A DNA stretch of 64,000 nucleotides from Candidatus Woesearchaeota archaeon (GTDB lineage Archaea > Nanobdellota > Nanobdellia > Woesearchaeales > DSVV01), in NCBI GenBank assembly GCA_018303075.1, contig JAGVYW010000001.1:7156-71155 (forward strand). Reading direction: 5' to 3'. The position numbers and the translations under genes were made by a program. Numbering within the stretch: position 1 is the first letter of the stretch; the number at the start of each line of letters is the position of its first letter. Of this stretch, positions 4,869 through 60,522 are shown piece after piece. The notes below the pieces were generated by a model. It did not search any database. It was not told the DNA's origin and worked only from the letters and a program-made list of their open reading frames with translations.

Positions 4869-5310
4869 GCAATCATCAAAGAAAGAAGCAAAAGAATCTA
4901 GTGAATCAGCAGATGCTGTAAAATTCACAGAACAAGATCAATTAGTAGTAGCTGTGCGAATCAGAGGTTTAGTCAGAGTACCAGGTCATATTAAAGATAC
5001 ATTGCAAATGTTAAACTTACATAAGAAAAACTTCTGCTGTGTCTATAAAGATACACCAAGCATCAGAGGAATGCTGCAAAAGGTAAAAGATTATATCACT
5101 TTTGGCACAATTGATTATGCTTTATACACTCAGATTGTTGAAAAACGAGCAGAGAAAGATGTAAAGAAGAATTGTATGAAGAAGTTTTTTAGATTACACC
5201 CACCAAGAAAAGGATATGGAAGAAAAGGTGTAAAAGTACCTTTTGCTAATTCAGGAGCATTAGGAGATAGAAAGAATGAAATGAAAGATCTGTTAATCAG
5301 AATGTTATAA
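4843..5310 (+). CDS. rpl30: 50S ribosomal protein L30 (uL30)
   Basis: The ORF shows the archaeal L30 pattern VVAVRIRGLVRVPGHIKDTLQMLNL. The start is placed at MAQQK; an ATG at 4822 would overlap S5. Confidence 0.8.
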   Translation: MAQQKQNNKQSSKKEAKESSESADAVKFTEQDQLVVAVRIRGLVRVPGHIKDTLQMLNLHKKNFCCVYKDTPSIRGMLQKVKDYITFGTIDYALYTQIVEKRAEKDVKKNCMKKFFRLHPPRKGYGRKGVKVPFANSGALGDRKNEMKDLLIRML

Positions 5311-10652: not shown

Positions 10653-11873
10653 CTAGAATTCAAATAATTTCTTTTGTTTTTTTAGATTGTCCAGCAAAAT
10701 GCTCTGCTTTAATTGTAAACTGCAATCATAATTAAATCTCTTTTTGATAAATGCTAATGTATAATTTAACATTGTTTGTTTATCTTCGAATTCAATAGGT
10801 TGTGCTGCTACTGCTTTTCTTGTTGCTTCTCTTACAACCCAAACACCTAATGGGGCAATATATTCGTTTGGGTCAACAAAACGTAAAGTGAGTATGCTTG
10901 CTTGTTTTTTTGTTTGCTGCAACTTTTCAAGAATTGCTAATCTAGCAGCGTAATAGCCACCAACTGTTGAAGATGCATATTCTTTTCTTCCATAATAATC
11001 TTCATAGTCTGTTGCAAATGATGTTTTTTCTGAGATAATTGTTTCAAATAATTCATACTGCCATTCGTTTGGAAAGAATAAGATCAGATAATAATTTCCA
11101 AGATGCCCTCCAAAATATGCTTTGTAGCAATCAAGTTGGTTGTAATCTTTTATTTGTTTGATTAATGTTTTTCCAATTGTATCATCTGTTAAAGTTATTG
11201 ACCATCTTGTCGGCACTAATTTTCTTTGTGTTTTTACTCCGAGATTTCCTGTACTCACAATTTTTGTTAGATAATGCTCATCGAATCCAGCGGTGTAAAG
11301 CTCCTGCAATGCAGCTACTGCTTTTACATCTGTGTCAGAAACAATCTTATCAACTTTTGTTGGAACTTTGATATTTTCTGTAATTTGCGCTTTTCTTAAT
11401 TCAATATTACAGCCATGAGGAGCTTCTTCTCTGTTGAGTGTAAGGCTGAAGTTTGGTTTTTTTGATAAATTTATCTCTATATCCACTGGTTTTTGCGAAA
11501 GAGAAAGCTCTTGTGATAGCTCTAAGAATTTGTTGGTAGATGAATTATTAGACGGATTGTTTATTGATTTGATATTTGCTTTAAACTGTGCATTGACTAA
11601 CTGTGTTCTTAAATCAATTATTTTAGGAATTGAATAATTTTCTCTGCTCCAAAGCAAAGGCTCATCGTTTTGTCTGTATTCCTCTGTATTAAGAATGCCA
11701 ACATTTATGTTAGGATAACCAAATCTTCCAACAAAGATGTTAGGAGATGCTCCAAAGTAATCCTGCTTTGCTTTTTTGTTGAATTCCTCCTGTGATTGCA
11801 GCTTTATCTTCTTTGGATCTAATGCAGGAAAATGCAATGTTCTGCCTTTGTCTTTGATGTATGATATGTCCAT
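10653..11873 (-). CDS. conserved archaeal protein, possibly Nre-family (DNA-repair-associated)
   Basis: The start was chosen at MDISYIKDKG; the upstream ATG of the 489-aa frame would overlap the divergent DHH gene. The Nre assignment rests on recollection of the family (motif PNIFVGRFGYPNINVG) and is tentative. Confidence 0.35.
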   Translation of the reverse strand: MDISYIKDKGRTLHFPALDPKKIKLQSQEEFNKKAKQDYFGASPNIFVGRFGYPNINVGILNTEEYRQNDEPLLWSRENYSIPKIIDLRTQLVNAQFKANIKSINNPSNNSSTNKFLELSQELSLSQKPVDIEINLSKKPNFSLTLNREEAPHGCNIELRKAQITENIKVPTKVDKIVSDTDVKAVAALQELYTAGFDEHYLTKIVSTGNLGVKTQRKLVPTRWSITLTDDTIGKTLIKQIKDYNQLDCYKAYFGGHLGNYYLILFFPNEWQYELFETIISEKTSFATDYEDYYGRKEYASSTVGGYYAARLAILEKLQQTKKQASILTLRFVDPNEYIAPLGVWVVREATRKAVAAQPIEFEDKQTMLNYTLAFIKKRFNYDCSLQLKQSILLDNLKKQKKLFEF

Positions 11874-11970
11874 GAAATAAAGAAAGTTTTTTTGGATTAA
11901 ATAGTTATTGAAAACAGTGGTGTGCCAGAAAACAATTAAACATATAAATGACTCTTTGTTTTTCAGATTC

Positions 11971-13017
11971 ATGCCAAGTTTACAAGAAGATATTAGTTTT
12001 ATCCGCAAAGAGCTGGAAACTAGCAAAAAACCATTGTTTCTATTTGATGATGATCCAGATGGGTTAACATCTTTTTTGCTGCTATACAGAAAAATACAGC
12101 GTGGAAAAGGGATATTTATCAAAAGCAGCCCGAATATTGAAAAAAAATATCTTAAACAGGTTCAAGAATATGGTCCGGACAAAATCTTTATCTTAGATAT
12201 GCCTATTGTTGAACAAGAGTTCATTGATGGAGCATTACAGTCAGGGGTACAAAAAATATTATGGATTGATCATCATGAACCTCAGAAAAATACAGGTGTT
12301 TATTATTTGAATCCTAGAAATTATATTGATGCTGATAATAGACCGACGAATTATTGGGCATATCTAATCGTACAGCAGGATCAATGGATTGCTATAGTTG
12401 GATGCTTATCTGATTGGTTTCTTCCAGAGTTTGCTGCAGAATTCTCAAGCAAATATCCTGAGATGCTGCCAAGCAATATCACAAAAGTTGACGAAGCATT
12501 GTTTACTACAAAAATAGGTGGTTTGTCCCGTATTTTTTCTTTTATACTTAAAGGAAAGTCAGATGACGCTAAGAAATGCATAAAAATTCTTACAAGATTA
12601 GAGCATTTTGATGAAGTATTACATCAAACAACTGCTCAAGGCAAGTTTGTATATCAAAAATTTGAGGCAATTAATAAGGAATATCTAGAAACATTGGATA
12701 ATACAAAAAATGCTCAGATTGTTGGCAATCTTTTGCTGTACAAATATAGCGAGATGAAAACAAGTTTTACTTCTGATCTGTCTAATGAACTACTATTTAA
12801 GAATCCTGGCAAAGCCATTCTAATCTGCAGAGAGAAATCTGGAGAAATGAAATGCAGCATGCGCGGAGCAAATTATGATCTTCCAACAATAATCCATAAA
12901 TCCCTTGAAGGACTGCAAGGATATGGCGGAGGACATACACATGCATGTGGTGTTTGTGTCAAGCTGAGGGATTGGGATGTTTTTTTGGAGAGGGTTAAAA
13001 AAGAAATCGAATCATAA
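11971..13017 (+). CDS. DHH-DHHA1 family phosphoesterase (RecJ/NrnA-like)
   Basis: The protein has DHH motifs LFLFDDDPDGLTSF and IDHHEP and the C-terminal DHHA1 GGGH motif (GGGHTHACG). The start is placed at MPSLQ; an alternative ATG lies at 11908. Confidence 0.6.
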   Translation: MPSLQEDISFIRKELETSKKPLFLFDDDPDGLTSFLLLYRKIQRGKGIFIKSSPNIEKKYLKQVQEYGPDKIFILDMPIVEQEFIDGALQSGVQKILWIDHHEPQKNTGVYYLNPRNYIDADNRPTNYWAYLIVQQDQWIAIVGCLSDWFLPEFAAEFSSKYPEMLPSNITKVDEALFTTKIGGLSRIFSFILKGKSDDAKKCIKILTRLEHFDEVLHQTTAQGKFVYQKFEAINKEYLETLDNTKNAQIVGNLLLYKYSEMKTSFTSDLSNELLFKNPGKAILICREKSGEMKCSMRGANYDLPTIIHKSLEGLQGYGGGHTHACGVCVKLRDWDVFLERVKKEIES

Positions 13018-13060
13018 AATGAATCGACTATAAAAAATACTTTCTTATTTTAAGTAATAA

Positions 13061-13231
13061 ATGATAATCTATAATCCACATAATGGACAGTTCCTTAATG
13101 AGAGAATTAAAAAAGCAGATGAGTTGTTTAATCAAATCCCCACAAAATATTGTTTTATTACTGGATCTTTTCTCTATAAAGAAAAATACAATGATATAGA
13201 TATCTTTTTAATATCTAGAACTTTTCTATGA
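13061..13231 (+). pseudogene. minimal nucleotidyltransferase (MNT) fragment
   Basis: This 56-aa frame MIIYNPHNGQFLNERIKKADELFNQIPTKYCFITGSFLYKEKYNDIDIFLIS carries the GS...D.D nucleotidyltransferase motif. It is too short for an intact MNT. A following ORF at 13228-13419 is in another frame. Confidence 0.25.
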
Positions 13232-13459
13232 GCTGTGTTTCTAAGAACATGCTTCCTAAAAAGCAATTAAAGGTTACTCTTTCAGATTATTGGCATGTTA
13301 TTAATGAGGGTATTCCAACTTTATTAAACCAAAAAAGTAAATATCATAAAGATGTTCGTTTTCTTATACTCTATACTGAATACTTCAAAACTGGAGAGGG
13401 TGTAAAATTTCCGATTTAAAAGCCAAACATTAATAAATGAACGATATTCTACTATCCCT

Positions 13460-14332
13460 ATGAAGGGTGAAGTTTTTTTTAATCATGAGAAGTTAAAAAT
13501 AATCTGCGAAGATGTACTTTCAACAGATAAAATTCCTAAAAATAGCGTTGATTTAATAGTTACATCTCCTCCTTATAATGTTGATATAAAATATAATTCT
13601 CATAATGACAAAATAAATTATGAAAAATATTTAGAATTTAGTCATAAATGGTTATCCAGATGTTTTGAATGGTTAAAAGATGATGGAAGATTATGTCTAA
13701 ATATTCTCTTAGATAAAAATAAAGATGGTCAGCAGAGTGTTGGTGCAGATTTTACAACTATTGCAAAAAAAATAGGTTATAAGTATCATTCTACAATTAT
13801 CTGGAATGAAGGAAATATTTCAAGAAGAACTGCTTGGGGTTCTTGGCTAAGTGCATCTGCTCCTTATGTAATTGCACCTGTAGAACTAATCCTAATTTTA
13901 TATAAGCAAGATTGGAAAAAGAAAGAGAAGAAAGAGTCAGATATAACACGACAAGAATTTATGGATTGGACTAATGGGTTATGGACTTTTCAAGGGCAAA
14001 GTAAAAAAGGAGCCGGAGGTCATCCTGCACCGTTCCCGATTGAGTTACCTAGAAGATGTATTAAATTATTTAGCTTTGTCGGAGATGTTGTATTAGATCC
14101 TTTTATGGGAAGCGGCTCGACATTAATTGCTGCCGCCAACAATAATAGAAAATCAATAGGAATTGATGTCGATAAAGAATATTGTGCGATAGCAAAAAAA
14201 AGATTAATTGCTGAAGCCAATATTTTTGAAAAGAAATTGCATGAAATGAAAGTCGAGAAAGAAAAACCCATCACTAGAAAAAGAACGGATTCCAATCCTA
14301 CTCAGAAATTGCTCGATGTTACTGTCAATTAA
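13460..14332 (+). CDS. DNA methyltransferase, beta-class (N4-cytosine or N6-adenine)
   Basis: Motif IV (VTSPPYNV) precedes motif I (LDPFMGSGST), which is the beta-class permuted order. SPPY is typical of N4C/N6A methyltransferases. Confidence 0.8.
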   Translation: MKGEVFFNHEKLKIICEDVLSTDKIPKNSVDLIVTSPPYNVDIKYNSHNDKINYEKYLEFSHKWLSRCFEWLKDDGRLCLNILLDKNKDGQQSVGADFTTIAKKIGYKYHSTIIWNEGNISRRTAWGSWLSASAPYVIAPVELILILYKQDWKKKEKKESDITRQEFMDWTNGLWTFQGQSKKGAGGHPAPFPIELPRRCIKLFSFVGDVVLDPFMGSGSTLIAAANNNRKSIGIDVDKEYCAIAKKRLIAEANIFEKKLHEMKVEKEKPITRKRTDSNPTQKLLDVTVN

Positions 14333-14355
14333 ACAAACAATAAGGTATGACAAAA

Positions 14356-14821
14356 ATGGCAAAAACTAAGGAAGAAATGTCGCAAGCTGATTTGATTATG
14401 GAATATTATAAGAAACATCCTAAAAGAGAGATACCTCATCCTGAAATTGTTGACTGGGTTGTTGATGAGTTTAAACAAGACGAATTCCACTTGTCTATTG
14501 ACAGGTGGTGGAATTCGTAAGCGTCAAGAACCACCTTAGGTGTTATCGATAAGCATGCCACTGGTTTGAAAAGTATTTAGAGATCCTGACAGAGCAATTA
14601 GAAAATTATCACAAGAAGGACAACTCATCAAAATAAATAAAGGAGTTTACAAATATGACCCTGATTTCGTACATAATAGAGAACTTGAAGATTTTACACC
14701 TGCACAAAAAGAAGAAATTTTTAAGAGGGATAATTACAGATGTGTAATTTGCGGTAGAGGAAAAGCAGTGTTTGTTCTTGATGTATCGCTTCGCTATTTT
14801 GATGGAACGACGAGCCACTAA
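14356..14821 (+). pseudogene. HNH/Zn-ribbon endonuclease-like gene disrupted by a MITE-like insertion (possible degraded restriction partner of the methyltransferase)
   Basis: The 5' part (MAKTKEEMSQADLIMEYYKKHPKREIPHPEIVDWVVDEFK...) terminates inside the repeat. The 3' part runs in a different frame from 14570 to 14821 with no start codon. It encodes a winged-helix-like segment and a C-x2-C motif (RDNYRCVICGRGK). Confidence 0.4.
14475..14590. repeat. MITE-like repeated element, copy B (inside the HNH-like pseudogene)
   Basis: This is the same element as 7336-7467: the 5' ~65 nt are about 95% identical and the 3' terminal motif is shared. Its length is not a multiple of 3, consistent with the frameshift between the gene halves. 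Confidence 0.5.
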
Positions 14822-14898
14822 AAATTACTTTATTCTAAATTATTCCGAAATCTTTAAGTAGGTGTTTTATAATCATATTTCTTTAAGAGGTTTTGTAA

Positions 14899-15972
14899 AT
14901 GGTATATGTATCTCCATCATTATTAGCTGCTGACTTTTCAAAAATTAAACAAGAACTGCAATCTGTCATAAATGCAGATTATCTGCATATTGATGTTATG
15001 GATGGCAAGTTTGTTGAGCAGAAAACTTTGTTTTTTGATATTGAAAATGTGAAACTAATTAAGAAGTACAGCAAAATTCCGTTTTTATCACATTTGATGG
15101 TTGAGAATCCTTTAGAGTATATCAAAAATTATGCAAAAGCAGGAAGCAGTATTATCTCATTTCATATTGAAGCAAAAGATGATACTTTTGCAGTTATCCA
15201 TGAGATTAAGAAGTATAAATGCAAAGTTTCAATTGCTTTAAATCCTGAAACTCCTGTTGATAGAGTATTACCTTATCTTGCGCTTATTGATCATGTGTTA
15301 GTTATGTCAGTTGTGCCTGGAAAAGGAGGACAGCAATATATTGATAGTACAGATGCTAGAATAAGATTATTAAGACAAATCATTCAGCAAATGGATTTTA
15401 ATATATTAATCGAAATTGACGGCGGAGTTAAACTAGAGAATTGTTTTAAACCAATAATGGCTGGTGCTGATATTCTTGTTTCTGGTACAGGAATTTTTGG
15501 TGCGCAAAATCATAATGAGGTGATTGAGAAAATGAAAGACATTATTTTACTCGGAGCAGATCATGCAGGTTATAAATTAAAAGAATATGTTAAACAATTG
15601 CTTGCTCAGAAAAATATTGCGTATAAAGATTTTGGAACAAATAGCGAAGAATCTGTAGACTATCCAATCTATGCACAAAAGGTTGCCAAACAGATTTCAC
15701 AAGGCAAGGCAAAACGTGGAATCTTGGTTTGTGGGACAGGACAAGGAATGGCGATGGCTGCAAATCGATACAATAATGTAAGGGCAGCACTGTGTTTAGA
15801 TACTTATTTTGCACAACAAGCAAGAGAACATGTGGATAGTAATGTGTTGTGTTTAGCAGGAAGAGTAACAAAACAAGAAGATGCTGAAAATATTGTTGAG
15901 ACTTGGTTAAATACTTCTTTTAGTGGAGAAGATAAAAGGGTTAGAAGATTGAAGCAGATTGAAGATGTATGA
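14899..15972 (+). CDS. bifunctional ribulose-phosphate 3-epimerase / ribose-5-phosphate isomerase B fusion (Rpe-RpiB)
   Basis: The N-terminal ~215 aa match Rpe (SPSLLAADF, HIDVMDG, IDGG). The C-terminal ~140 aa match RpiB/LacAB (GADHAGYKLK, SVDYPIYAQKVA, GILVCGTGQGMAMAANR). Confidence 0.85.
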   Translation: MVYVSPSLLAADFSKIKQELQSVINADYLHIDVMDGKFVEQKTLFFDIENVKLIKKYSKIPFLSHLMVENPLEYIKNYAKAGSSIISFHIEAKDDTFAVIHEIKKYKCKVSIALNPETPVDRVLPYLALIDHVLVMSVVPGKGGQQYIDSTDARIRLLRQIIQQMDFNILIEIDGGVKLENCFKPIMAGADILVSGTGIFGAQNHNEVIEKMKDIILLGADHAGYKLKEYVKQLLAQKNIAYKDFGTNSEESVDYPIYAQKVAKQISQGKAKRGILVCGTGQGMAMAANRYNNVRAALCLDTYFAQQAREHVDSNVLCLAGRVTKQEDAENIVETWLNTSFSGEDKRVRRLKQIEDV

Positions 15973-16048
15973 AAAAGAAGCATGAGAGAAAGCAATTCAG
16001 TAATATTTATAAAGCAATTCTTTTTCTGTTCAGTATATGCGCTGATGG

Positions 16049-16203
16049 TCTAATGGTTACAATCTTTTAGGAAAAGCTTGACCAAAACTTGTGGGTTTCC
16101 TCACTACGTTCGTCAAGCCCACTAAAAAAAGATTGCTGTAAATGACTGTGGCCTTCCAAGCCGCGTATCTGGGTTCGAATCCCAGTCAGCGCATTTCTTT
16201 TCT
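16049..16203 (+). tRNA. tRNA-Gly(UCC) with an ~84-nt intron at a non-canonical position in the D-arm (about positions 21-23); CCA not encoded
   Basis: The acceptor stem pairs GCGCUGA (16049-16055) with UCAGCGC (16196-16202), followed by the discriminator A. The T-arm is CUGGG-UUCGAAU-CCCAG. An intact anticodon arm GUGGC-CUUCCAA-GCCGC gives anticodon UCC at 16165-16167. The 5' exon carries the D-stem and D-loop GUCU-AAUGGUUA. The intron (about 16070-16153) has complementary ends CAAUC/GAUUG and internal helices cttgac/gtcaag and gtggg/cccac. Confidence 0.6.
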
Positions 16204-16237
16204 TTTTTCAAGTAGATTTATATATCTAATAAAATAA

Positions 16238-17920
16238 ATGAGAACGATGATCGTCAAGACATATAACTCATTAAAAAGAAAGAAAAATGAGTTTCTTATA
16301 AATAGAAAACAGAAAAAACAAGTAAAATCATTATATAAGAAAAAACTTGTAATTATTCAAATAGATGGTTTATCGTATGATGATCTTATTTTTTGTATGA
16401 ATGATGGATATGCACCATTTCTTAAAAAACTAATAAATGAACAACAGTACTTTCTGAAGCAATACAATCCAGGATTGGTCAGCACTACTCCTGTAATACA
16501 AGCAGGTATTCTCTATGGGGATAATAATGATGTTGCTGGATTTCGTTTTGTAGACAAAGAGAGAAAAAAAGCAGTTAGCCTTGAAAGTCCATTGGATGCT
16601 TTTTATTTAGAGAATACTTATTATAAAGACAAAAAAGGTTTGCTGGCTGATTATGGCAGCAGTTATTTTAATCATTTTTCAGGAACTGCTGAACGATCAA
16701 TGTTTACAATGTCTACATTGTGGAAGCAAAGCAAACTGCAAAAATTAAAACAAACAGATCTACTGCTTATATTTCTAGCAAATCCATTGCGTATCGTGAA
16801 AGTGGCATATTTAGCAGCATATGAGATAATAATCGAACACCTTGAAGGTGTATGGCGAGGCATCGTTGCGTTTTTTAAATGGAAAAGAGCAAAAATACCT
16901 TTAGTATATTCATTAGTAAGGATGAATATGAATGTCATCTGCAGAGAATTAGCAACACTTGGCACAATAATTGATATGAGCAGAGATACACCAATAATCT
17001 ATACAAATTACATTGGCTATGATGAAGTATCGCATCATCGAGGACCTAGCAATAAAAGTGTTTATCGTATTGTCAGGGCAATCGACAGGAATATAAAAAG
17101 GATATGGAACAAAAAACCATCAGAATATGAAATGATCATCCTTTCAGACCATGGACAGACTGAAGCACTTCCGTTTAAGTGTGTATATAAGCAGTCATTG
17201 GGTGATTTTATACAGCAATTAACAGCAGTTCCAGTTTCATTTGACGAGGAGATTGATACTGAAGAGATTACACTTGAATATATAAAAAGATATCTGGATG
17301 AGGCAAGCAAAAAAAACAAATTTGCAGGACTGCTGACAATATTTGAGAGCAAAAAGTTAGAAAAAGAAAAGAAAAAGAAACTTACTGCAATCAGTATAGC
17401 TACATCCTGCAATCTGGCACAGATATACTTTCTGATTGAGAAAAAAAAGCTGGTCAGAACAGAAATTGACCAATTTTATCCAGATTTTATCTCAGAGCTG
17501 ATCAAACATCATGGGATAGGAGTAGTATTTGGCAGAGGCGAAAATCATTTCTTCATCTTAACGAAAGAAGGAGAGATAACATTCACTGCAACTGGAGAAA
17601 TAAGCACAGATGAAGATAGAAAAAAATTAGCTTACTTATTGAATAATTATAAAATGAATATATCACATGAAATTTTTATAAAACAAATCCTAAAAATGAT
17701 GCAAAAACCATTAGCTGGGGATCTTATTATAATAGGTTCAATGATTAAAGACAAAGATAACAAACAAAAAATGATAAGTTTTGTCGACCACTTTGGCAGC
17801 CATGGAGCATTTGGGGGAAAACAGACAAATGCTTTTATCATAACAAAAGATGAGATCAAAGAAGAAATCTATGATGCTACACAAATTCATAAAATTATTA
17901 AGGAGAGGTATTGCAGATAA
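16238..17920 (+). CDS. alkaline-phosphatase-superfamily enzyme (type I phosphodiesterase/nucleotide pyrophosphatase-like)
   Basis: An N-terminal metal-site motif LVIIQIDGLSYDDL and a later ILSDHGQTE motif are typical of the PF01663/alkaline phosphatase superfamily. Confidence 0.55.
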   Translation: MRTMIVKTYNSLKRKKNEFLINRKQKKQVKSLYKKKLVIIQIDGLSYDDLIFCMNDGYAPFLKKLINEQQYFLKQYNPGLVSTTPVIQAGILYGDNNDVAGFRFVDKERKKAVSLESPLDAFYLENTYYKDKKGLLADYGSSYFNHFSGTAERSMFTMSTLWKQSKLQKLKQTDLLLIFLANPLRIVKVAYLAAYEIIIEHLEGVWRGIVAFFKWKRAKIPLVYSLVRMNMNVICRELATLGTIIDMSRDTPIIYTNYIGYDEVSHHRGPSNKSVYRIVRAIDRNIKRIWNKKPSEYEMIILSDHGQTEALPFKCVYKQSLGDFIQQLTAVPVSFDEEIDTEEITLEYIKRYLDEASKKNKFAGLLTIFESKKLEKEKKKKLTAISIATSCNLAQIYFLIEKKKLVRTEIDQFYPDFISELIKHHGIGVVFGRGENHFFILTKEGEITFTATGEISTDEDRKKLAYLLNNYKMNISHEIFIKQILKMMQKPLAGDLIIIGSMIKDKDNKQKMISFVDHFGSHGAFGGKQTNAFIITKDEIKEEIYDATQIHKIIKERYCR

Positions 17921-17985
17921 TTAATCTTTTTCTATCATAGGAAAATTAATATGATAGGACATCGACTGAGATAATGATAATAAAT

Positions 17986-18927
17986 CTAAAAGCTCCTCAT
18001 CTTCTCAAACTCTTTATACCTAGAATCAATTTCTGCTGAAGTCAATCTTTTCATTCTATTCAAAGAAAAATCCTCTGCATTAAATGAAGCTATTGTTGAG
18101 CCATACACAACTGCTTTTTTGATGTTTGCAAATGACATATCATCTGTTGCAGCTAAGTATCCAATAAATCCCCCTGCAAAACAATCTCCACAGCCTGTTG
18201 GGTCTTTGATTAACTCTAAAGGATACCCTGGAGCATTAAAATGAAGTTCATTGCCTGCTGAATCTTTAGCAAACAACAAAGCACCATGCTCTCCTTTTTT
18301 GATGATGCAATATTGTACACCTAATAATAATGCTTGCCTTGCAGCCTGTACAAGATTGACTGTGTTAAATAACATCCTAGCTTCGCTGTCATTGATTACT
18401 AATGCATCTACTCTTTTGATTACTTTAATCAGGCTTTCCTTTGCTGTTTGTATCCAGAGATTCATTGAATCAAGAACTATAAATTTTGGTTTGGCTAATT
18501 GCTCTATTACCTTTAATTGCAGCATTGGGGGGTTATTTGCAAGCAGTATATACTGAGCATTTTTGTATTCTTCAGGAAGGTCTGCCTCAAAATCTGCTAA
18601 TGAATTAAGCTCTGTTTTCAATGTATGTGCTTGATTCATATCAAATTCATATTTACCTGACCATCGAAAGTTTTTGCCTTGAATTGTTAATCCATTAAGA
18701 TCAATATTTCTTTGCTGCAGTAATTGAAGCTGTTCTTTAGGAAAATCTTCTCCTGCAATTGCTACAATCCCCAGCTTGATTTTAATTTTGTTTTCTACAG
18801 AATTTGTGAAGAATGAAGCAGCATAGCTTGCATATATTGCAGAACCTCCAAGAACAGTTTTAACTTCACCAAAAGGTGTAGAGATATCGTCTAGACCTAT
18901 GCTTCCTATGATTATCATTTGCACCAT
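17986..18927 (-). CDS. PfkB-family carbohydrate/nucleoside kinase (ribokinase-like)
   Basis: The protein has a Gly-rich N-terminus IGSIGLDD and the C-terminal anion-hole motif DPTGCGDCFAGGF. Confidence 0.8.
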   Translation of the reverse strand: MVQMIIIGSIGLDDISTPFGEVKTVLGGSAIYASYAASFFTNSVENKIKIKLGIVAIAGEDFPKEQLQLLQQRNIDLNGLTIQGKNFRWSGKYEFDMNQAHTLKTELNSLADFEADLPEEYKNAQYILLANNPPMLQLKVIEQLAKPKFIVLDSMNLWIQTAKESLIKVIKRVDALVINDSEARMLFNTVNLVQAARQALLLGVQYCIIKKGEHGALLFAKDSAGNELHFNAPGYPLELIKDPTGCGDCFAGGFIGYLAATDDMSFANIKKAVVYGSTIASFNAEDFSLNRMKRLTSAEIDSRYKEFEKMRSF

Positions 18928-19003
18928 CTGATTTTAGAATTATGTTTGATTTAAAAAGTTAATCCAGAAAGATTTATATTATTCACTATTTAACTTCATA
19001 ATT

Positions 19004-19453
19004 ATGGCATTAAAAATAATGGAAAAAGATTGCTGTGATATATATGAGAAGTTTGACAAGAAAAATCTTTTGGTTAAAAGCTATTATTATTGGGACGTGC
19101 TTGCAAGAAACAAACAAGTTACACTTGGATCTTGTGTAATTATCCTTAAACGTCATGTTGAAAACTTTGGGCAAGTTGAACCAGATGAACTAACAGAACT
19201 TTCTGACGCTGTTCAAGAACTAGAAAAAGCTCTAAAAAATACATTTGCCTATGATAAAATCAATTATCTTATGCTAATGATGGCAGATAACCACGTCCAC
19301 TTTCATGTACTTCCTCGTTATCAAAAAGATAAAGAGTTTAATAAGATTAAATTTCAAGATAAATGCTGGCCAAAACTCTCAGATATGCAGTCACAAGAGA
19401 TTTCTAAAGAGACAATTATGAAGATAAAGGAAAAGATAATGTCGGGATACTAA
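19004..19453 (+). CDS. HIT-family (histidine triad) hydrolase
   Basis: The histidine triad HVHFHVLPR is present. Confidence 0.7.
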   Translation: MALKIMEKDCCDIYEKFDKKNLLVKSYYYWDVLARNKQVTLGSCVIILKRHVENFGQVEPDELTELSDAVQELEKALKNTFAYDKINYLMLMMADNHVHFHVLPRYQKDKEFNKIKFQDKCWPKLSDMQSQEISKETIMKIKEKIMSGY

Positions 19454-28608: not shown

Positions 28609-29145
28609 TCAAGGTAATCTATCCAATTGTTTTACTTGATAATTCTCTTCTTCTATAGTAATTACTTCCTCTTCCTGTTTCTTATGTTCTTCTGCTTTCT
28701 TTGGCTCTTTTTTCTCTTTTTCATGATGCTCTGCTATGAATGCCTTATCTCTTATCTTGCTCTGCACAGCATCCATCTCTTCCGGCTGCAATTGTTTAGG
28801 CTTCCATTGAAAGTTAATGCCATCATCTTCTCGTCTAGATAACACCATACAAACAAGATGTGGATATGGATTATTAGTATTGTCACCATTAAACATAACA
28901 ATATTTGTGCCTTGCGCTCCAGAAGCTTCAAACAATGCAGATGCAGTTGTATTTGCTACAGTAAACAATTGCTGAACAACTATATCCTGCAATGCTTCAA
29001 TTGTATCAACATGCTGTTTAGAAAAAATTTCAACATGACCAAGTGCTGCTGGATATTCACTTAACATAGCTAGAACTATTGCATCCTCATAAACAATCTT
29101 TGCTTTTAATTTTCCTTCTTTTATTTTACAAAGTTTACATTCCAA
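28609..29145 (-). CDS. HIT-like protein with a degenerate histidine triad and a charged C-terminal tail
   Basis: An N-terminal C-x2-C (MECKLCKI) and GHVEIFSKQH match the HIT fold. The triad position reads PHLVCMV, so only one His remains. Confidence 0.45.
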   Translation of the reverse strand: MECKLCKIKEGKLKAKIVYEDAIVLAMLSEYPAALGHVEIFSKQHVDTIEALQDIVVQQLFTVANTTASALFEASGAQGTNIVMFNGDNTNNPYPHLVCMVLSRREDDGINFQWKPKQLQPEEMDAVQSKIRDKAFIAEHHEKEKKEPKKAEEHKKQEEEVITIEEENYQVKQLDRLP

Positions 29146-29171
29146 AAAAACTCACTTCGTTCGTTTTTTTA

Positions 29172-30320
29172 TCATCCAATTCTTGAGATAAGGTCATCTT
29201 CATTGTTTTGCTCTTTATCTTCTTTATTTTTATCTTCGTTATATTCCTCTACTTCTTTTTTCTCGACGTATTCTTTCAATTTTGATAAATCTACATCCTT
29301 GAAAATCTCCTGCAATTCTGCTATTTTTGAAATCTTCTCTTTTAGCAATGGCAGATCATGCAATAAAAGATACTTAAGCTTAGGATTAATCGCAAGCACT
29401 TCCATAAAATCTTCATAAATCTCTTCTTCAGCCAATTTCTCTGACAATTGTTGTTTTTTAAAGTTCTCCTCTAATTCCTTAAATACATCAATCTGCACAG
29501 GTTTTTGCTGTATAATTGATGGCTGTGAGAATTGTGATTGTTGCTGTTGTACAACTTCAGCTTCTTTGATTATTGGTTTTGATTGTTTTTGCACAACACT
29601 TTGTCTATCTTCACCTAATTCTTTCTTTCGTATAACTGATATAATCTCATCAATCTGAATATTCTTGAGAAGCATCTGTAATTGTGGATTAGTCTGAGCT
29701 AATGCTTTAAATTGTTCAGAATTCTCAACAATAAGCCGTTTTAATGGTATATTTTTGTCAATTATTGCAAAAGCTTCTTCTTTTGTATATGATGTTGATG
29801 GTAAAGAACTTGTTTTCTGCTGTTGCTGTATTGGAAATTTAGCATACGCATTCTTCAGCATTAATGGCAGATTCTGTTTTAGCACTTTGTACAATTCTTC
29901 CTCTTTTATTTTATCAATATCTCCTTTTTTAAACTCAAACACGTCAATGCCATCATTTTTTTCTCGAGGAATAATATGCAATAAGAAATGCTGGCTTTGC
30001 TGTCCTGCAACAACTCCATTTGCAACAAAAATTATATCACCAAACACTAAAACACCTTCTTTGACAGCTTTTGAGATTTCTTTTATCTTTACACTCAAAT
30101 GCTGAAATGTTTCAGGAGGCAATAATGGAAGAATGGGGTAATGTTCTTTTGGCATTACTAGTGTATGCCCTTTAAATGCTGGATTGATATCAAGAACAGC
30201 AATTATCTTATCATCTTCATATATTTTCTTAGATGGAATCTCTCCTTTAACTATTTTACAAAAAGGACAATTTGCTTTCTGTGCTTCTAATGCTTGCTGT
30301 TGTTCTGGAGTAAGCTGCAT
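29172..30320 (-). CDS. HIT-domain protein with a ~250-aa Gln/Lys/Glu-rich C-terminal extension
   Basis: The HIT fold is supported by CPFCKIV...GHTLVMPKEH and QSQHFLLHIIPR. The remainder is low-complexity. Confidence 0.55.
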   Translation of the reverse strand: MQLTPEQQQALEAQKANCPFCKIVKGEIPSKKIYEDDKIIAVLDINPAFKGHTLVMPKEHYPILPLLPPETFQHLSVKIKEISKAVKEGVLVFGDIIFVANGVVAGQQSQHFLLHIIPREKNDGIDVFEFKKGDIDKIKEEELYKVLKQNLPLMLKNAYAKFPIQQQQKTSSLPSTSYTKEEAFAIIDKNIPLKRLIVENSEQFKALAQTNPQLQMLLKNIQIDEIISVIRKKELGEDRQSVVQKQSKPIIKEAEVVQQQQSQFSQPSIIQQKPVQIDVFKELEENFKKQQLSEKLAEEEIYEDFMEVLAINPKLKYLLLHDLPLLKEKISKIAELQEIFKDVDLSKLKEYVEKKEVEEYNEDKNKEDKEQNNEDDLISRIG

Positions 30321-47694: not shown

Positions 47695-48219
47695 ATGCCA
47701 ACAAAAAAAGCATCTATCCATATCATTCTTACAGGTGGAACAATTGATTCGTATTGGAATGGCACCATTGATACTGCTACGCCATTAAAAGAATCTTCTA
47801 TTCCTCTATTTATCTAATCGTTAAAACTCTATGATAAGGTAATGTTCACAACTATTTGTATGAAAGACAGTAGACAATTAGTACAATCTGACAGAAAAAA
47901 GATTTTGATTGCAACTGAACAAAGTCCATGCAAAAAGATAATTATTACGCATGGAACATATACAATACCCGATACAGCTAAGTTTCTGCAGACTAATTTA
48001 CAGCGAAAAGACCAAACAATTATCTTGACAGGTTCAATGATTCCATTAACTGGATTTTCTCCATCAGATGCTCCTTTTAATTTAGGTTTTTCATTTGCAA
48101 AACTGCCAGAATTATCTGCTGGAGTTTACATCTGCATGAACGGAAGAATCTTCACAGCAGATGAAACTATTAAGCTCTTATTTGAAGGAAGGTTTGCGTC
48201 TGTGTTTGGGGAAAAGTGA
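47695..48219 (+). pseudogene. L-asparaginase N-terminal-domain gene carrying an in-frame TAA stop (codon 41)
   Basis: Asparaginase motifs occur in order and with correct spacing: ILTGGTIDS, IIITHGTYT (the HGTDT equivalent), and ILTGSMIPLTGFSPSDAPFNLGFSFA. A single TAA at 47815-47817 interrupts an otherwise continuous frame. No C-terminal asparaginase domain is present. Confidence 0.5.
48127..48219 (+). repeat. ~90-bp direct repeat, left copy (3' end of the asparaginase-like gene)
   Basis: About 90% identical to 48933-49025. The two copies flank the MNT-HEPN cassette. Confidence 0.7.
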
Positions 48220-49391: not shown

Positions 49392-52300
49392 ATGCAACAA
49401 AAAAAAGACTGGGATTTTGAAGTGATTAAAGAAGGAGAAGAAAATATATTGTACATATATTGTGAAGGGGTAAGCATATCGCCTTTAGTTGAAGATTCAA
49501 GTATTGTGATGATTAGAACAATCGATATTCTTTCTCAAGTATCCGGTATAAGCAAGATAATATTCAATCAAAAAAGAGATTATGAGTATGATTTCAAACA
49601 AACACAGATTCTTGCAGAGATTGCAGAACTTTATAAAAAACTAATAAAAGAAAAGAATTATTTCAATTATCCTACTGCTGGTAATTACGATAATAGGATT
49701 ATCAATCAGAAATATAATGAATTGCGAGAAATTATATTTAAACATATGAAAGGAGATCCTATTGGCGCATATATTGAATTAACAAGAATAATGCGAAGAG
49801 AAAAGATTGATCTTGAAAAAGTAGTTGAACAGATACAACAGGATATTACAAAAAGGTATATAGCAATAATAAGCTACGTTACAAGCCTTCTTGAAAAGAC
49901 AAGAATGCTAATACTTGCAAAACCATACATTGCTGGCTATAAAATTGGAGATAGAAGCGTTTACAAATACATTTTCACTCCGTCAATAAAGCCAGATTTT
50001 ATGTTTACAAAATTAATGGCTAATTTTCCAAGCAATGCTGAAGAGATTGATTCATACATAATTGGCGACGATACAGATGTTACTATCTTTCGTCTGCCTG
50101 ATTCAACAATAATACTCTATCATATTGTACCGCCTGAATTCAAGCTTCCTGAAGAAAAATATGAATTATTAGATATGGCAAGAAAAATTCTTGCAGAACA
50201 CAAGCCAAAACAAGAAGAGTTTACAGATCCAGAAAGGATGCGCGAGGTATTTTCTAATATTGGCAAGGACTTGCTTGAAGAGATTGCAACATCGAAGAAT
50301 ATTATGTTGAGAGAGAAAGAGCTGCAAAAATTAACGCAAATCTTAGTGCGATACACTATTGGTTTTGGGTTGATTGAAGTGTTATTGCAGGATGATGATA
50401 TGCAAGATATCTCAATCAACAGTCCATTGGGAAAGATACCTATATTCATTGTGCATGGAAAATATGGCGATTGCACAACAAATATTATCCCGACAAAATC
50501 AGAATCTGAAAGCTGGGCGTCAAAATTGAGATTAATCTCTGCCCGTCCATTAGACGAAGCAAATCCAATATTAGATACAGAATTAGAACTGCCTGGTGCA
50601 TCTACAAGAGTTTCTGTAATTACACGGCCATTAAATCCAACAGGACTAGCATTTTCTTTTAGAAAACATAGAGATAAACCCTGGACGTTACCATTGTTCA
50701 TTAAATTCAAAATGTTGAATCCTATTGCAGCTGGTTTAATCAGTTTCCTTGTTGATGGAACGCGGACAATTTTAATTGCAGGAACAAGAAGTGCAGGAAA
50801 ATCATCTTTTTTGACAGGGGTGCTTGTTGAGATTATGAGAAAGTATAGGATAATAACAGTAGAAGACAGCGTTGCAGGTGATTCTGAGATATTAATCAGA
50901 AATAATAATAAATGGCAAAGAACAACAATAGGGAATCTTATTGATAAACAGCTAGAGAAACAAGTTTCATTACAGACATTTTCTGGACATGAGGTTGCAG
51001 AAAATACTGAAGATATTGAAATTTTTGCAATGAACAAAAAAGGAAAGATCGTAGTCACAAAACCTTCTGTATTTATTCGACATAAAGTAACAAAACCAAT
51101 CTATGAGATAAAAACAAGAACAGGAAAGATATTGAAAGTAACAGGAGATCATTCTCTATTTGCAATTGGAGAAAACGCAGAGATTTCAGAGGCAAAAGTG
51201 AATAATCTAAACATCGGAAACAAAATAGCTGTAGCAAGAAAACTACCGTTAATCAATCAAGAAAAAGAATTTATGAACATATTATACGATGTAATTGAAA
51301 GAACAGATTCATTTATTACAGGTTTAACAACAAACTATTGCTTAGAACATCATTTTAATGATATATTATCATTTGGTTCAGCAAGAAATGTTAGCTCTGC
51401 AACAATAAAAAGTTGGAGAAGAAACAAAGTTCTTCCTGGATATATTGCTAAAGATCTTATGACACTCCATCAAACACTTGACTTTTCAACAGATAAATTC
51501 AGAATCAATAATTCACAGAAATTGATATCATTAAAGATACAATTGAATGAAGATTTTATGACATTTATTGGATTATGGATTGCAGATGGGTGTTATGATA
51601 AAAAATCAATTATCATATCCTGCAATGATCCAGAAGACAGAGCAGTTGTAGAAAAAGTTGGAAAAAGCTTTGGAATACAATACAAGATGCATAGTGATGG
51701 CATTTCATATATGCTCAATTCCAAAACATTGAAAGTGGTATTGCAGGATATTCTTTCATGCACTGGGGATTCATACACTAAAAGAGTTCCTGGATGGATA
51801 TACACACTCTCCCCGCAGCAAATTGCTGCATTTTTACGAGGAGTATTTACTGGCGATGGCTGCGCTACAGACAAAGAAATAGTAATCAATCTTTGTAGCA
51901 GGCATCTTCTCTCTGATATGCAAACATTACTCTTGATTTTCAATATTAGTCTGAGAATAGGGAATTTTATTCCAAGAGATAAAACAATACGAGCTGCTAT
52001 CTCTGGAAACGAATATCTAACAAGTTTTGCAAAATATATTGGATTTCTACAACCATATAAAAACAATGTTCTTTCAAGACTTTGTGAGAAAAAGATAACT
52101 CATGATACAACAGATACATTTGATTTAAGAATAAATACAAAAATAGAACTTGCTAACTTATTTGGCAAGAGATTCAATAAAAATGATTACATAAACAGAA
52201 ATAACAGCATAGGAAGAAGAAAACTTACATCATTATTGCAAGTACAATCGCAAACACAGATGCTAGAGTTACAGCATCAAATACTAGAAAACTTAAAGCA

Positions 52301-59742: not shown

Positions 59743-60522
59743 ATGGAAAGCAAAATAACAAACAATAAAAAATGGAAAACATCTATAGCAAACTCAACTG
59801 ATAAACAAACTCTTGTAAGAGGGTATCCTTTAGAAGATTTAATACAAAACTTAAATTTTACCCAAGCTATTTACTTAATTCTTAAAGGAGAGCTGCCAAC
59901 AAAGCAAGAAGAGCAAATGCTAAACGCTATTTTTGTTGCAGCTATTGACCACGGCATTGCTTCACCATCATCGCAAGTTGCAAGAATTGTTTTTTCTGGA
60001 GGAAACTCGTTAAACACAGCAGTTGGTGCAGGAATTTTGACATTAGGAGATTCACATGGCGGCGCAATTGAGCAATGCGCAAAACTATTGCAGGAAAACA
60101 AGGACAAACCAGCAAAAGAGATTGTTGCGGAGATTCTGCAGCAAAAGAAAGTCTTGCCTGGTCTTGGCCATAAAATTTACAAAGATGAGGATCCGCGAAC
60201 AATACAATTATTTTCTATTGCAAAAAAACTAAGATTATATGGCAATTATTGCAAATTAACAGAAGAGATACAAAAAGAGATTGAAAAACAAAAAGGAAAA
60301 AAGCTTTGCATAAACATCGACGGTGCAATCGCCGCAATAATGTCAGAGATGCAGTTTGACTGGAGACTCGGCAAAGGTCTGTTTATCATCCCTAGAACAG
60401 CTGGTTTAGTTGCACATGCTCATGAAGAATGGTGCAGAGAAAAACCATTCAGAAGATTGGATGAAGATGAATATTGCTATGATGGAAAAGATGAACGAAA
60501 ATTGCCGAAAAAAATAGAATAA
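59743..60522 (+). CDS. citrate-synthase-family protein, short form (citryl-CoA lyase-like)
   Basis: The citrate synthase signature is LPGLGHKIYKDEDPR. At 259 aa it corresponds only to the small/C-terminal catalytic part of the fold. Confidence 0.55.
   Translation: MESKITNNKKWKTSIANSTDKQTLVRGYPLEDLIQNLNFTQAIYLILKGELPTKQEEQMLNAIFVAAIDHGIASPSSQVARIVFSGGNSLNTAVGAGILTLGDSHGGAIEQCAKLLQENKDKPAKEIVAEILQQKKVLPGLGHKIYKDEDPRTIQLFSIAKKLRLYGNYCKLTEEIQKEIEKQKGKKLCINIDGAIAAIMSEMQFDWRLGKGLFIIPRTAGLVAHAHEEWCREKPFRRLDEDEYCYDGKDERKLPKKIE

What the first reader, a model, noticed from the sequence alone, without database searches (positions are those of the whole stretch)
14899..19453. Rpe-RpiB fusion enzyme within a compact pentose/nucleoside salvage cluster
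A single 357-aa protein joins ribulose-phosphate 3-epimerase and RpiB-type ribose-5-phosphate isomerase, the two non-oxidative pentose-phosphate isomerisation steps. It is followed by an alkaline-phosphatase-superfamily phosphodiesterase or pentomutase-like enzyme, a PfkB ribokinase-like kinase and a HIT nucleotide hydrolase. This looks like a streamlined route for channelling scavenged nucleosides and ribose into central metabolism, which fits a reduced-genome symbiont. RpiB itself is unusual for archaea, which typically use RpiA.
Basis: partly seen in the sequence, partly recalled or inferred. Interest (0 to 1): 0.5.

Follow-up and report, generated by a model that had tools for sequence, protein, structure and literature searches.

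The report
Fused pentose-phosphate epimerase–isomerase gene
A small groundwater archaeon encodes two consecutive pentose-phosphate enzymes (Rpe and RpiB) as one intact protein, a rare fusion seen so far only in ultra-small archaea and bacteria, but the genes beside it are not a conserved sugar or nucleoside salvage cluster.

Summary
ORF 14899-15972 (+) encodes a 357-aa protein with a full-length Rpe domain (aa 4-200) and a full-length RpiB domain (aa 216-354). Both score above the curated NCBIfam cut-offs. There is no stop or frameshift, and the core catalytic residues are present. The same gene appears in independent assemblies.

About 45 same-order relatives exist. All named ones are Woesearchaeota or Nanoarchaeota, plus one Falkowbacteria. 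A separate reverse-order RpiB-Rpe fusion occurs in Patescibacteria and one Micrarchaeota. I found no paper describing either fusion.

The "salvage cluster" reading is not supported:
- An intron-containing tRNA-Gly gene lies between the fusion and the alkaline-phosphatase-family gene.
- The PfkB kinase is on the opposite strand.
- None of eight other fusion neighbourhoods (seven distinct relatives) contains these three genes.
- Two relatives that keep the phosphatase-kinase pair do not have the fusion upstream.
- The 560-aa protein is an uncharacterised enzyme resembling nucleotide pyrophosphatases and phosphonoacetate hydrolase, not a pentomutase.

Most likely this is a stand-alone bifunctional enzyme of the non-oxidative pentose phosphate pathway that interconverts xylulose-5-P, ribulose-5-P and ribose-5-P. 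Interest is modest: a new architectural variant built from well-known enzymes.

The parts
14899..15972 (+). Rpe-RpiB fusion gene (357 aa)
   Evidence: ORF. Both Pfam domains are full length and both NCBIfam equivalog cut-offs are passed. The AF2 model has pLDDT 92.8 and pTM 0.88. The identical gene is present in other assemblies.
14908..15498 (+). Rpe (ribulose-phosphate 3-epimerase) domain, aa 4-200
   Evidence: PF00834, E 2.9e-57. H30, D32, H65 and D174 are invariant in 21 fusion proteins. The loop motif is MSVVPGKGGQ, with Lys where 94 of 117 standalone Rpe have Phe.
15544..15960 (+). RpiB (ribose-5-phosphate isomerase B) domain, aa 216-354
   Evidence: PF02502, E 1.9e-52. D221, H222, C278 and H311 are invariant in alignment A1; T280 is present in the window (CGTG) but is Ser in some relatives. 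The domain aligns to T. maritima, C. thermocellum and E. coli RpiB structures. Deviations: V312 where the structures have Asn, and R347 where most relatives have His.
16039..16193 (+). tRNA-Gly(UCC) gene with an 83-nt intron (16060-16142) in the D-loop; a separate gene between the fusion and the AlkP gene
   Evidence: Rfam tRNA scores 20.9 bits on the 3' part. Default ARAGORN missed it. After the intron is removed, ARAGORN calls a 72-nt tRNA-Gly(tcc).
16238..17920 (+). Alkaline-phosphatase-superfamily protein of the NPP / phosphonoacetate-hydrolase type (560 aa), specific function unknown; not shown to be linked to the fusion
   Evidence: PF01663, E 9.7e-11. No NCBIfam hit. Metal and nucleophile residues D43, T84, D262, H266, D304, H305 and H522 are invariant. 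Best fold matches are 1ei6, Xac NPP, ENPP5/6/7 and PafA.
17986..18927 (-). PfkB-family kinase (313 aa), opposite strand; close relative of PDB 3kd6
   Evidence: PF00294. 3kd6 matches at E 1.1e-83 over aa 3-310. All NCBIfam equivalogs score far below their cut-offs.
19004..19453 (+). HIT-family protein (149 aa), divergent from the PfkB gene
   Evidence: PF01230, E 1.1e-09. Best PDB match is 2oik at 8.2e-11.

Best explanation
ORF 14899-15972 encodes a genuine bifunctional enzyme of the non-oxidative pentose phosphate pathway in a groundwater Woesearchaeote (DPANN). The N-terminal Rpe domain interconverts xylulose-5-P and ribulose-5-P. The C-terminal RpiB domain interconverts ribulose-5-P and ribose-5-P. 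The two are joined by a linker of about three residues. One polypeptide therefore carries both reactions that share ribulose-5-P, giving 1:1 stoichiometry, one gene in place of two, and possibly local hand-over of the intermediate.

Shown here: domain identity, integrity of the frame, presence of the core catalytic residues, recurrence of the fusion across a clade, and a confident compact structure model. Inferred: the substrates, bifunctional activity, and any channelling.

The gene is its own transcription unit. The tRNA-Gly, AlkP-family, PfkB and HIT genes downstream are neighbours by local genome arrangement, not a conserved functional cluster.
For: - Both domains are full length and above curated equivalog cut-offs.
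- Rpe metal and acid-base residues H30, D32, H65 and D174 are invariant in 21 fusion proteins. So are RpiB residues D221, H222, C278 and H311. T280 is present in the window and is Thr or Ser in relatives. The RpiB residues line up with solved RpiB structures. Their roles follow the trypanosomatid RpiB mutagenesis paper PMC4783025.
- The AF2 model has pLDDT 92.8 and pTM 0.88. Helix 205-212 runs almost directly into strand 216-220.
- The identical gene occurs in independent assemblies.
- 45 same-order proteins were retrieved. In a rough neighbour-joining tree their Rpe domains fall almost entirely into one group.
- A TTTATAA box and an AAGAGG motif lie upstream of the ATG (sequence read directly).
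- Woesearchaeota are reported to carry a complete non-oxidative pentose phosphate pathway in most genomes (PMC8421398).
Against: - No activity data exist.
- The rpe equivalog score is only 1.6 bits above its cut-off.
- The Rpe active-site loop has Lys142 where 94 of 117 standalone Rpe have Phe.
- The RpiB domain has V312 where solved RpiBs have Asn, and K346-R347 where most relatives have Arg-His. Substrate preference could therefore differ.
- Transketolase and transaldolase, the pathway partners, were not found in the window or its upstream flank. The rest of the genome could not be examined.
Confidence: 0.8

Rival explanations
1. One reading: the fusion, the AlkP-family enzyme, the PfkB kinase and the HIT hydrolase form one compact cluster. 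Together they channel scavenged nucleosides and ribose into central metabolism.
For: - The four genes are adjacent.
- The PfkB kinase is very close to PDB 3kd6 (E 1.1e-83). I recall that entry being titled a nucleoside kinase with AMP bound; this is memory and was not checked.
- NPP-type enzymes and HIT proteins act on nucleotides in general.
- AlkP-PfkB adjacency is kept in two related Woesearchaeota, and HIT in one of them.
Against: - A tRNA gene separates the fusion from AlkP, PfkB is on the opposite strand, and HIT is divergent from PfkB.
- None of eight other fusion neighbourhoods (seven distinct relatives) has these genes. That includes relatives at 77% and 71% identity.
- In the two relatives that keep AlkP-PfkB, a cupredoxin gene lies directly upstream, not the fusion.
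- Bacterial members of the AlkP family are fused to a DUF360/YvlD membrane domain, Yip1, EEP or glycosyltransferase domains. That points away from pentose metabolism.
- No phosphopentomutase-like fold match was found.
- Two further HIT genes lie elsewhere in the window.
Confidence: 0.07
2. The fusion acts on six-carbon sugar phosphates, like the E. coli AlsE and RpiB/AlsB pair. The RpiB domain would convert allose-6-P to allulose-6-P. The Rpe-like domain would convert allulose-6-P to fructose-6-P. These are also consecutive steps with a shared intermediate.
For: - The Rpe domain also hits the D-allulose-6-P 3-epimerase model NF007266 (163.6 bits), and PDB 3ct7 (AlsE) matches at 5.7e-34.
- The Rpe loop Phe-to-Lys change and the RpiB Asn-to-Val and His-to-Arg changes could alter specificity.
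- From general knowledge, E. coli RpiB also isomerises allose-6-P.
Against: - NF007266 scores far below its 271-bit cut-off, whereas the rpe and rpiB equivalogs pass theirs.
- No sugar transporter or allose kinase lies nearby.
- Published reconstructions credit Woesearchaeota with a non-oxidative pentose phosphate pathway, which needs these two activities.
Confidence: 0.07
3. The fusion is an artefact: two adjacent genes joined by an assembly or sequencing error, or a decaying pseudogene.
For: The window comes from a metagenome-derived genome, and no read-level data were available.
Against: - The identical ORF occurs in independent assemblies.
- Dozens of diverged orthologues keep the same junction with a linker of only a few residues.
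- Catalytic residues are conserved in both halves.
- The two-domain structure model is confident.
Confidence: 0.02

Closest known systems
Standalone bacterial-type Rpe (e.g. PDB 1tqj Synechocystis, 1rpx potato chloroplast) and RpiB (e.g. 1o1x Thermotoga maritima, 3he8 Clostridium thermocellum, 1nn4/2vvr E. coli)
   Same: Each half aligns end to end with these enzymes (E 3e-40 and 8e-36). Each keeps the metal-binding or catalytic residues.
   Different: Here both are on one chain with a linker of about 3 residues. The Rpe loop has Lys142 instead of Phe. RpiB has V312 for Asn and R347 for His. No PDB chain covers both halves.
Reverse-order RpiB-Rpe fusions of Patescibacteria (CPR) and one Micrarchaeota
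   Same: They have the same two domains in one protein of about 350-390 aa. They come from ultra-small, reduced-genome lineages.
   Different: The domain order is opposite. Their Rpe domains are only 27-39% identical to this one, less than many standalone Rpe, and fall apart from the Rpe-RpiB group in a rough tree. This suggests an independent fusion. In 15 of 27, the position equivalent to His30 is Gln.
Other sugar-phosphate pathway fusions reported in archaea and CPR: Rpe fused to the transketolase N-terminus in Thaumarchaeota, Hps-Phi, G6pd-Pgd in Diapherotrites (PMC11237513), and RuBisCO fused to ribose-1,5-bisphosphate isomerase in CPR (PMC6389311)
   Same: All are fusions of enzymes from one pathway, often in small-genome lineages.
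   Different: None of these papers mentions an Rpe-RpiB fusion. The partner combination here is different.
E. coli AlsE (allulose-6-P 3-epimerase) plus RpiB/AlsB
   Same: The same two protein families catalyse consecutive steps with a shared ketose-phosphate intermediate. This comes from general knowledge; the AlsE structure 3ct7 matches at 5.7e-34.
   Different: In E. coli they are separate proteins acting on hexose phosphates. Here the AlsE model scores below its cut-off while the rpe model passes.

Membership tests
Ribulose-phosphate 3-epimerase (Rpe; PF00834, TIGR01163) | Full-length match to the family model above the curated cut-off | tested here: met
   PF00834 scores 193.7 bits over profile 2-198/198. 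TIGR01163 scores 214.2 bits against a 212.6 cut-off, which is a narrow pass.
Ribulose-phosphate 3-epimerase (Rpe; PF00834, TIGR01163) | Metal-binding and acid-base His/Asp/His/Asp set | tested here: met
   H30, D32, H65 and D174 are invariant in 21 fusion proteins and in nearly all 117 standalone Rpe compared. Assigning them roles rests on general knowledge of Rpe structures.
Ribulose-phosphate 3-epimerase (Rpe; PF00834, TIGR01163) | Canonical active-site capping loop PGFGGQ | tested here: inconclusive
   The window has PGKGGQ. Lys is found in 35 of 40 Rpe-RpiB fusions and Phe in 94 of 117 standalone Rpe. The effect on activity is unknown.
Ribulose-phosphate 3-epimerase (Rpe; PF00834, TIGR01163) | Catalyses xylulose-5-P to ribulose-5-P epimerisation | not testable with these tools
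   This needs an enzyme assay.
Ribose-5-phosphate isomerase B (RpiB; PF02502, TIGR01120) | Full-length match to the family model above the curated cut-off | tested here: met
   PF02502 scores 177.3 bits over profile 1-138/138. TIGR01120 scores 157.9 bits against 138.65, and NF004051 scores 173.9 against 135.
Ribose-5-phosphate isomerase B (RpiB; PF02502, TIGR01120) | Catalytic Cys base with Thr, the Asp-His pair and the ring-opening His (E. coli Cys66, Thr68, Asp9, His10, His99) | tested here: met
   C278, T280, D221, H222 and H311 align to these residues in 1nn4, 1o1x and 3he8. Their roles are as described in PMC4783025.
Ribose-5-phosphate isomerase B (RpiB; PF02502, TIGR01120) | Conserved secondary active-site residues: the Asn after the catalytic His, and the C-terminal Arg-His (not strictly family-defining) | tested here: not met
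   V312 replaces Asn; it is Gly in the five nearest relatives. K346-R347 replace Arg-His, as in the two nearest relatives. H138N in Leishmania RpiB lowers activity but does not abolish it.
Co-functional gene cluster or operon for pentose/nucleoside salvage | Genes co-oriented and contiguous enough to be co-transcribed | tested here: not met
   A tRNA gene lies between the fusion and AlkP. PfkB is on the minus strand. HIT is divergent from PfkB.
Co-functional gene cluster or operon for pentose/nucleoside salvage | Gene neighbourhood conserved across genomes that carry the fusion | tested here: not met
   No AlkP, PfkB or HIT gene is called next to the fusion in L001-L008 or the P0023 contig. 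In L027 and L028 a cupredoxin gene lies directly upstream of AlkP-PfkB, not the fusion. What is conserved in L007 and the window is Nre - DHH/DHHA1 - fusion; L006 and L008 keep DHH/DHHA1 upstream of the fusion.
Phosphopentomutase (DeoB), proposed for the 560-aa protein | Sequence or fold match to phosphopentomutase | tested here: not met
   There is no NCBIfam hit and no PDB sequence hit. The 50 best fold matches are phosphonoacetate hydrolase, NPP/ENPP and PafA/SPAP phosphatases.
D-allulose-6-phosphate 3-epimerase (AlsE, NF007266) | Score above the equivalog cut-off | tested here: not met
   163.6 bits against a 271 cut-off.

The most novel reading that the evidence does not exclude
Rpe and RpiB have been fused at least twice independently, once in each domain order. 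Both fusions are confined to ultra-small, reduced-genome lineages (DPANN archaea and CPR/Patescibacteria), with some transfer between them. The fusions carry a recurrent change of the Rpe active-site capping residue from Phe to Lys or Arg. This would point to selection in such cells for a single enzyme that equilibrates the pentose phosphates, perhaps with hand-over of ribulose-5-P between the two sites.
Probability: 0.3. Interest if true: 0.45.

Novelty: new variant of a known kind. Interest (0 to 1): 0.3.

Why it matters
The fusion is a clean natural "Rosetta stone" joining the two enzymes that share ribulose-5-phosphate. It offers a compact single-gene module for equilibrating pentose phosphates.

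It also affects genome annotation. Pipelines that name it only "ribulose-phosphate 3-epimerase" or only "ribose 5-phosphate isomerase B", as the source names do, can wrongly report the other step as missing in DPANN and CPR reconstructions.

If both domain orders really arose independently and only in ultra-small symbionts, that is a small but concrete example of convergent enzyme consolidation during genome reduction. The suggested nucleoside-salvage cluster, which would have been the more interesting claim, is not supported.

Tried and rejected
- The genome-contig scan with the fusion protein returned only standalone Rpe genes of Clostridia and Bacilli at 35-41% identity. The source genome and fused relatives were not recovered, so no genome-wide check for transketolase, transaldolase or RpiA was possible.
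- A look-up of the last gene of the window found nothing. The look-up of the first gene only extended into the ribosomal protein operon.
- The afdb50 fold library was unavailable.
- Cluster look-ups for the best standalone Rpe and RpiB relatives gave no organism names, so the donor lineage of each half is unresolved.
- Seven literature searches and four of the five papers read found no description of an Rpe-RpiB fusion. The fifth paper was read for RpiB residue roles. Absence from this open-access library is not proof that the fusion is unpublished.
- The conserved upstream DHH/DHHA1 protein had no informative PDB match. A possible nucleotide-related link through it was not pursued.
- The short ORFs between the methylase and the fusion gave no significant Pfam hit.
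- ARAGORN's forced intron call on the unspliced tRNA, tRNA-Ser(gct) with a 64-nt intron, was rejected. Splicing out 16060-16142 gives a canonical 72-nt tRNA-Gly(UCC) that matches the orthologues.
- The neighbour-joining tree is rough: BLOSUM distances, midpoint rooting, no support values. It is used only as a hint.
Full report
**What is in the sequence**

- 14899-15972 (+, 357 aa)
- 16238-17920 (+, 560 aa)
- 17986-18927 (-, 313 aa)
- 19004-19453 (+, 149 aa)

The 357-aa protein matches Pfam Ribul_P_3_epim over aa 4-200 (E 2.9e-57, whole profile). It matches LacAB_rpiB over aa 216-354 (E 1.9e-52, whole profile). With NCBIfam it passes the equivalog cut-offs for both activities. TIGR01163 rpe scores 214.2 bits against 212.6, a narrow pass. 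TIGR01120 rpiB scores 157.9 against 138.65.

The frame is continuous through the junction. The same 357-aa gene, in the same context, is on contigs from two other assemblies of groundwater metagenomes, ENA ERZ978281 and JGI 3300025308.

**The organism**

The neighbouring 560-aa protein is 100% identical to an NCBI protein from "Candidatus Woesearchaeota archaeon" on a 115-kb contig. The window also carries an archaeal ribosomal protein operon, an archaeal-type CCA-adding enzyme, family B DNA polymerase and Nre. GC content is about 32%. This is a DPANN archaeon from groundwater.

**Integrity of the two catalytic sites**

I aligned 21 fused proteins at 41-77% identity to the window protein.

In the Rpe half, H30, D32, H65 and D174 and the PGxGGQ loop are invariant. 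From general knowledge of Rpe structures, these four residues are the metal-binding and acid-base set.

In the RpiB half, D221, H222, C278, H311 and R350 are invariant. T280 is present in the window's CGTG motif and is Ser in some relatives.

Residue-by-residue alignment to the solved RpiBs of T. maritima, C. thermocellum and E. coli puts C278 and T280 on the catalytic Cys and Thr. It puts H311 on the ring-opening His and D221/H222 on the Asp-His pair. The roles of these residues are described, with mutagenesis, in PMC4783025.

There are three deviations:
- Lys142 sits in the Rpe capping loop, where 94 of 117 standalone Rpe compared have Phe. Lys is found in 35 of 40 same-order fusions.
- V312 sits where the solved RpiBs have Asn. 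The five nearest relatives have Gly.
- K346-R347 sit where most relatives have Arg-His.

These are second-shell or substrate-contact positions. They leave the chemistry intact but could shift specificity.

**Structure**

An AlphaFold2 model built on the 21-sequence alignment is confident: mean pLDDT 92.8 and pTM 0.88. The last Rpe helix (205-212) runs almost directly into the first RpiB strand (216-220). The linker is thus about three residues, and the high pTM suggests a fixed arrangement of the two domains. No PDB chain covers both halves.

**How widespread is the fusion**

A search of 5.8 billion clustered proteins found 34 clusters with both domains in the same order. An exhaustive HMMER search of 1.84 billion representatives, followed by BLAST of each half, gave 45 Rpe-RpiB proteins, some of them fragments. 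It also gave 27 representatives with the opposite order, RpiB-Rpe.

Every fused protein that carries an organism name belongs to a DPANN or CPR lineage:
- Rpe-RpiB: Woesearchaeota, Nanoarchaeota and one Falkowbacteria.
- RpiB-Rpe: "Patescibacteria group", Komeilibacteria and one Micrarchaeota.

The Rpe domains of the reverse-order proteins are only 27-39% identical to the window's, which is lower than many standalone Rpe. In a rough neighbour-joining tree, the same-order fusions fall almost entirely into one group, apart from the reverse-order ones. Together with the opposite domain order, this points to at least two independent fusion events.

Lys or Arg at the loop position also occurs in 14 of 27 reverse-order proteins. 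That could be convergence or shared ancestry of CPR/DPANN-type Rpe; I cannot tell which.

**Is there a salvage cluster?**

The anatomy argues against it. Between the fusion and the 560-aa gene lies a tRNA gene (16039-16193). The PfkB gene is on the opposite strand and convergent with the 560-aa gene. The HIT gene is divergent from PfkB across a 76-nt spacer. TATA-like boxes precede the fusion and the 560-aa gene (sequence read directly). That makes at least four separate transcription units.

Comparative context argues against it more strongly. I examined eight other neighbourhoods of fused genes, covering seven distinct relatives. They span 77% identity down to a CPR bacterium. None contains an AlkP, PfkB or HIT gene next to the fusion.

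What recurs upstream in Woesearchaeota is Nre - DHH/DHHA1 - fusion (L007 and the window; L006 and L008 keep DHH/DHHA1). Downstream in several relatives there is a gap of about 500 nt and then PIG-L plus a GT4 glycosyltransferase.

Conversely, the AlkP-PfkB pair is kept in two related Woesearchaeota, with AlkP at 80% and 58% identity. In both, the gene directly upstream of AlkP is a cupredoxin, not the fusion. One of these loci starts at the contig end, so nothing further upstream is visible there.

The fusion/AlkP adjacency therefore appears to be a rearrangement particular to this genome, with the breakpoint at the tRNA gene.

**What the neighbours are**

The 560-aa protein has the alkaline-phosphatase-superfamily metal and nucleophile set, and these residues are invariant across 28 relatives: D43, T84, D262, H266, D304, H305 and H522. 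Its model (pLDDT 86) is closest in fold to phosphonoacetate hydrolase, bacterial NPP, ENPP5/6/7 and PafA-type phosphatases. No phosphopentomutase appears in the top 50.

It has no NCBIfam assignment and no PDB sequence relative. Bacterial family members are often fused to DUF360/YvlD or Yip1 membrane domains, EEP domains or a glycosyltransferase. So "AlkP-superfamily phosphodiesterase-like" is right, "pentomutase-like" is not, and its substrate is unknown.

The PfkB protein is very close to PDB 3kd6 (E 1.1e-83). All NCBIfam equivalogs score far below their cut-offs. A nucleoside kinase role is possible but untested.

The HIT protein is a generic HIT family member, and two more HIT genes lie at 28609-30320.

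No transketolase, transaldolase, RpiA, PRPP synthetase, nucleoside phosphorylase or RuBisCO was found among the window ORFs scanned, or in the roughly 10 kb upstream seen on a matching contig.

**Most likely function**

This is a bifunctional enzyme of the non-oxidative pentose phosphate pathway that equilibrates xylulose-5-P, ribulose-5-P and ribose-5-P. This fits the report that most Woesearchaeota genomes encode a complete non-oxidative branch (PMC8421398).

The fusion guarantees equal amounts of both activities from one gene. It may also favour transfer of ribulose-5-P between sites, but that last point is inference only.

The main functional rival is an AlsE/AlsB-like pair acting on allose-6-P and allulose-6-P. 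It is disfavoured because the AlsE model scores 163.6 bits against a 271 cut-off while the rpe model passes. No hexose uptake or kinase genes are nearby either.

**Novelty**

The proteins are already in public databases, named after one half or the other. The literature searches did not turn up a description of an Rpe-RpiB fusion. The papers I read did not mention it either. They include a census of archaeal fusions, which reports Rpe fused to transketolase in Thaumarchaeota, Hps-Phi and G6pd-Pgd, and a paper on RuBisCO-isomerase fusions in CPR.

I rate this as a new architectural variant of well-known enzymes, of modest interest. The larger claim of a salvage cluster is not supported.

Noticed in passing
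window 16039-16193 (+); L001 2859-2961; L006 about 4914-5020: The window has a tRNA-Gly(UCC) with an 83-nt intron in the D-loop (16060-16142). Default ARAGORN missed it, and the spliced form is a canonical 72-nt tRNA. The orthologous tRNA-Gly in two relatives (fusion proteins 77% and 71% identical) lacks the D-loop intron. Those carry an insert of about 31 nt in the T-arm instead. A LAGLIDADG ORF is called on the opposite strand next to or overlapping the tRNA there.
   Followed up: partly
window 13030-14830: A block of about 1.9 kb sits between the DHH/DHHA1 gene and the fusion; in relatives L007 and L008 those two genes are directly adjacent. The block holds an N4/N6 DNA methylase (13460-14332, PF01555 E 1.7e-50). 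It also holds two short ORFs in different frames (14356-14520 and about 14570-14821, the latter ending after a CxxC motif) that read like pieces of one broken gene. Neither has a significant Pfam hit.
   Followed up: partly
window 10653-13017 and L007; DHH/DHHA1 also in L006 and L008: Nre - DHH/DHHA1 phosphoesterase - fusion is the conserved gene order around the fusion in L007 and the window; L006 and L008 keep DHH/DHHA1 upstream. The DHH protein is unassigned: Pfam scores are weak and there is no useful PDB relative.
   Followed up: partly
window 28609-29067 (-) and 29172-30320 (-): Two further HIT-domain genes are present. One is a 382-aa protein with HIT and DcpS_C-like matches at its N-terminus. 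That makes three HIT genes in 64 kb.
   Followed up: no
window 49392-53234 (+): A 1280-aa ORF contains an intein splicing domain with a LAGLIDADG endonuclease (aa about 511-1014). The intein is inserted in a T2SSE-type secretion/pilus ATPase-like protein.
   Followed up: no
window 59743-60522 (+) and 47842-48219 (+): Two genes look truncated. A 259-aa protein matches only the C-terminal half of the citrate synthase profile (164-352/357). A 125-aa ORF matches part of the asparaginase N-terminal domain (50-161/193).
   Followed up: no
L004/L005 6001-9522 (Falkowbacteria): In the CPR bacterium, the fused gene's start overlaps the preceding ORF. It is followed on the same strand by an FGGY-family sugar kinase and a GDPD glycerophosphodiesterase. 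This looks more like an operon than anything around the window's gene.
   Followed up: no
reverse-order fusions P0124-P0242 (alignment A3): In 15 of 27 RpiB-Rpe proteins, the position equivalent to the Rpe metal ligand His30 is Gln. In only 7 of 27 is the position equivalent to Ser7 a Ser. Their Rpe halves may be functionally divergent.
   Followed up: no
P0023 contig (no DNA held): In one Woesearchaeota-like relative on a 697-kb contig, a PRK/uridine-kinase-family gene (PF00485) lies divergently next to the fusion.
   Followed up: no
P0259: A 4856-aa protein in the representative library carries an RpiB-like domain at residues 885-1015.
   Followed up: no
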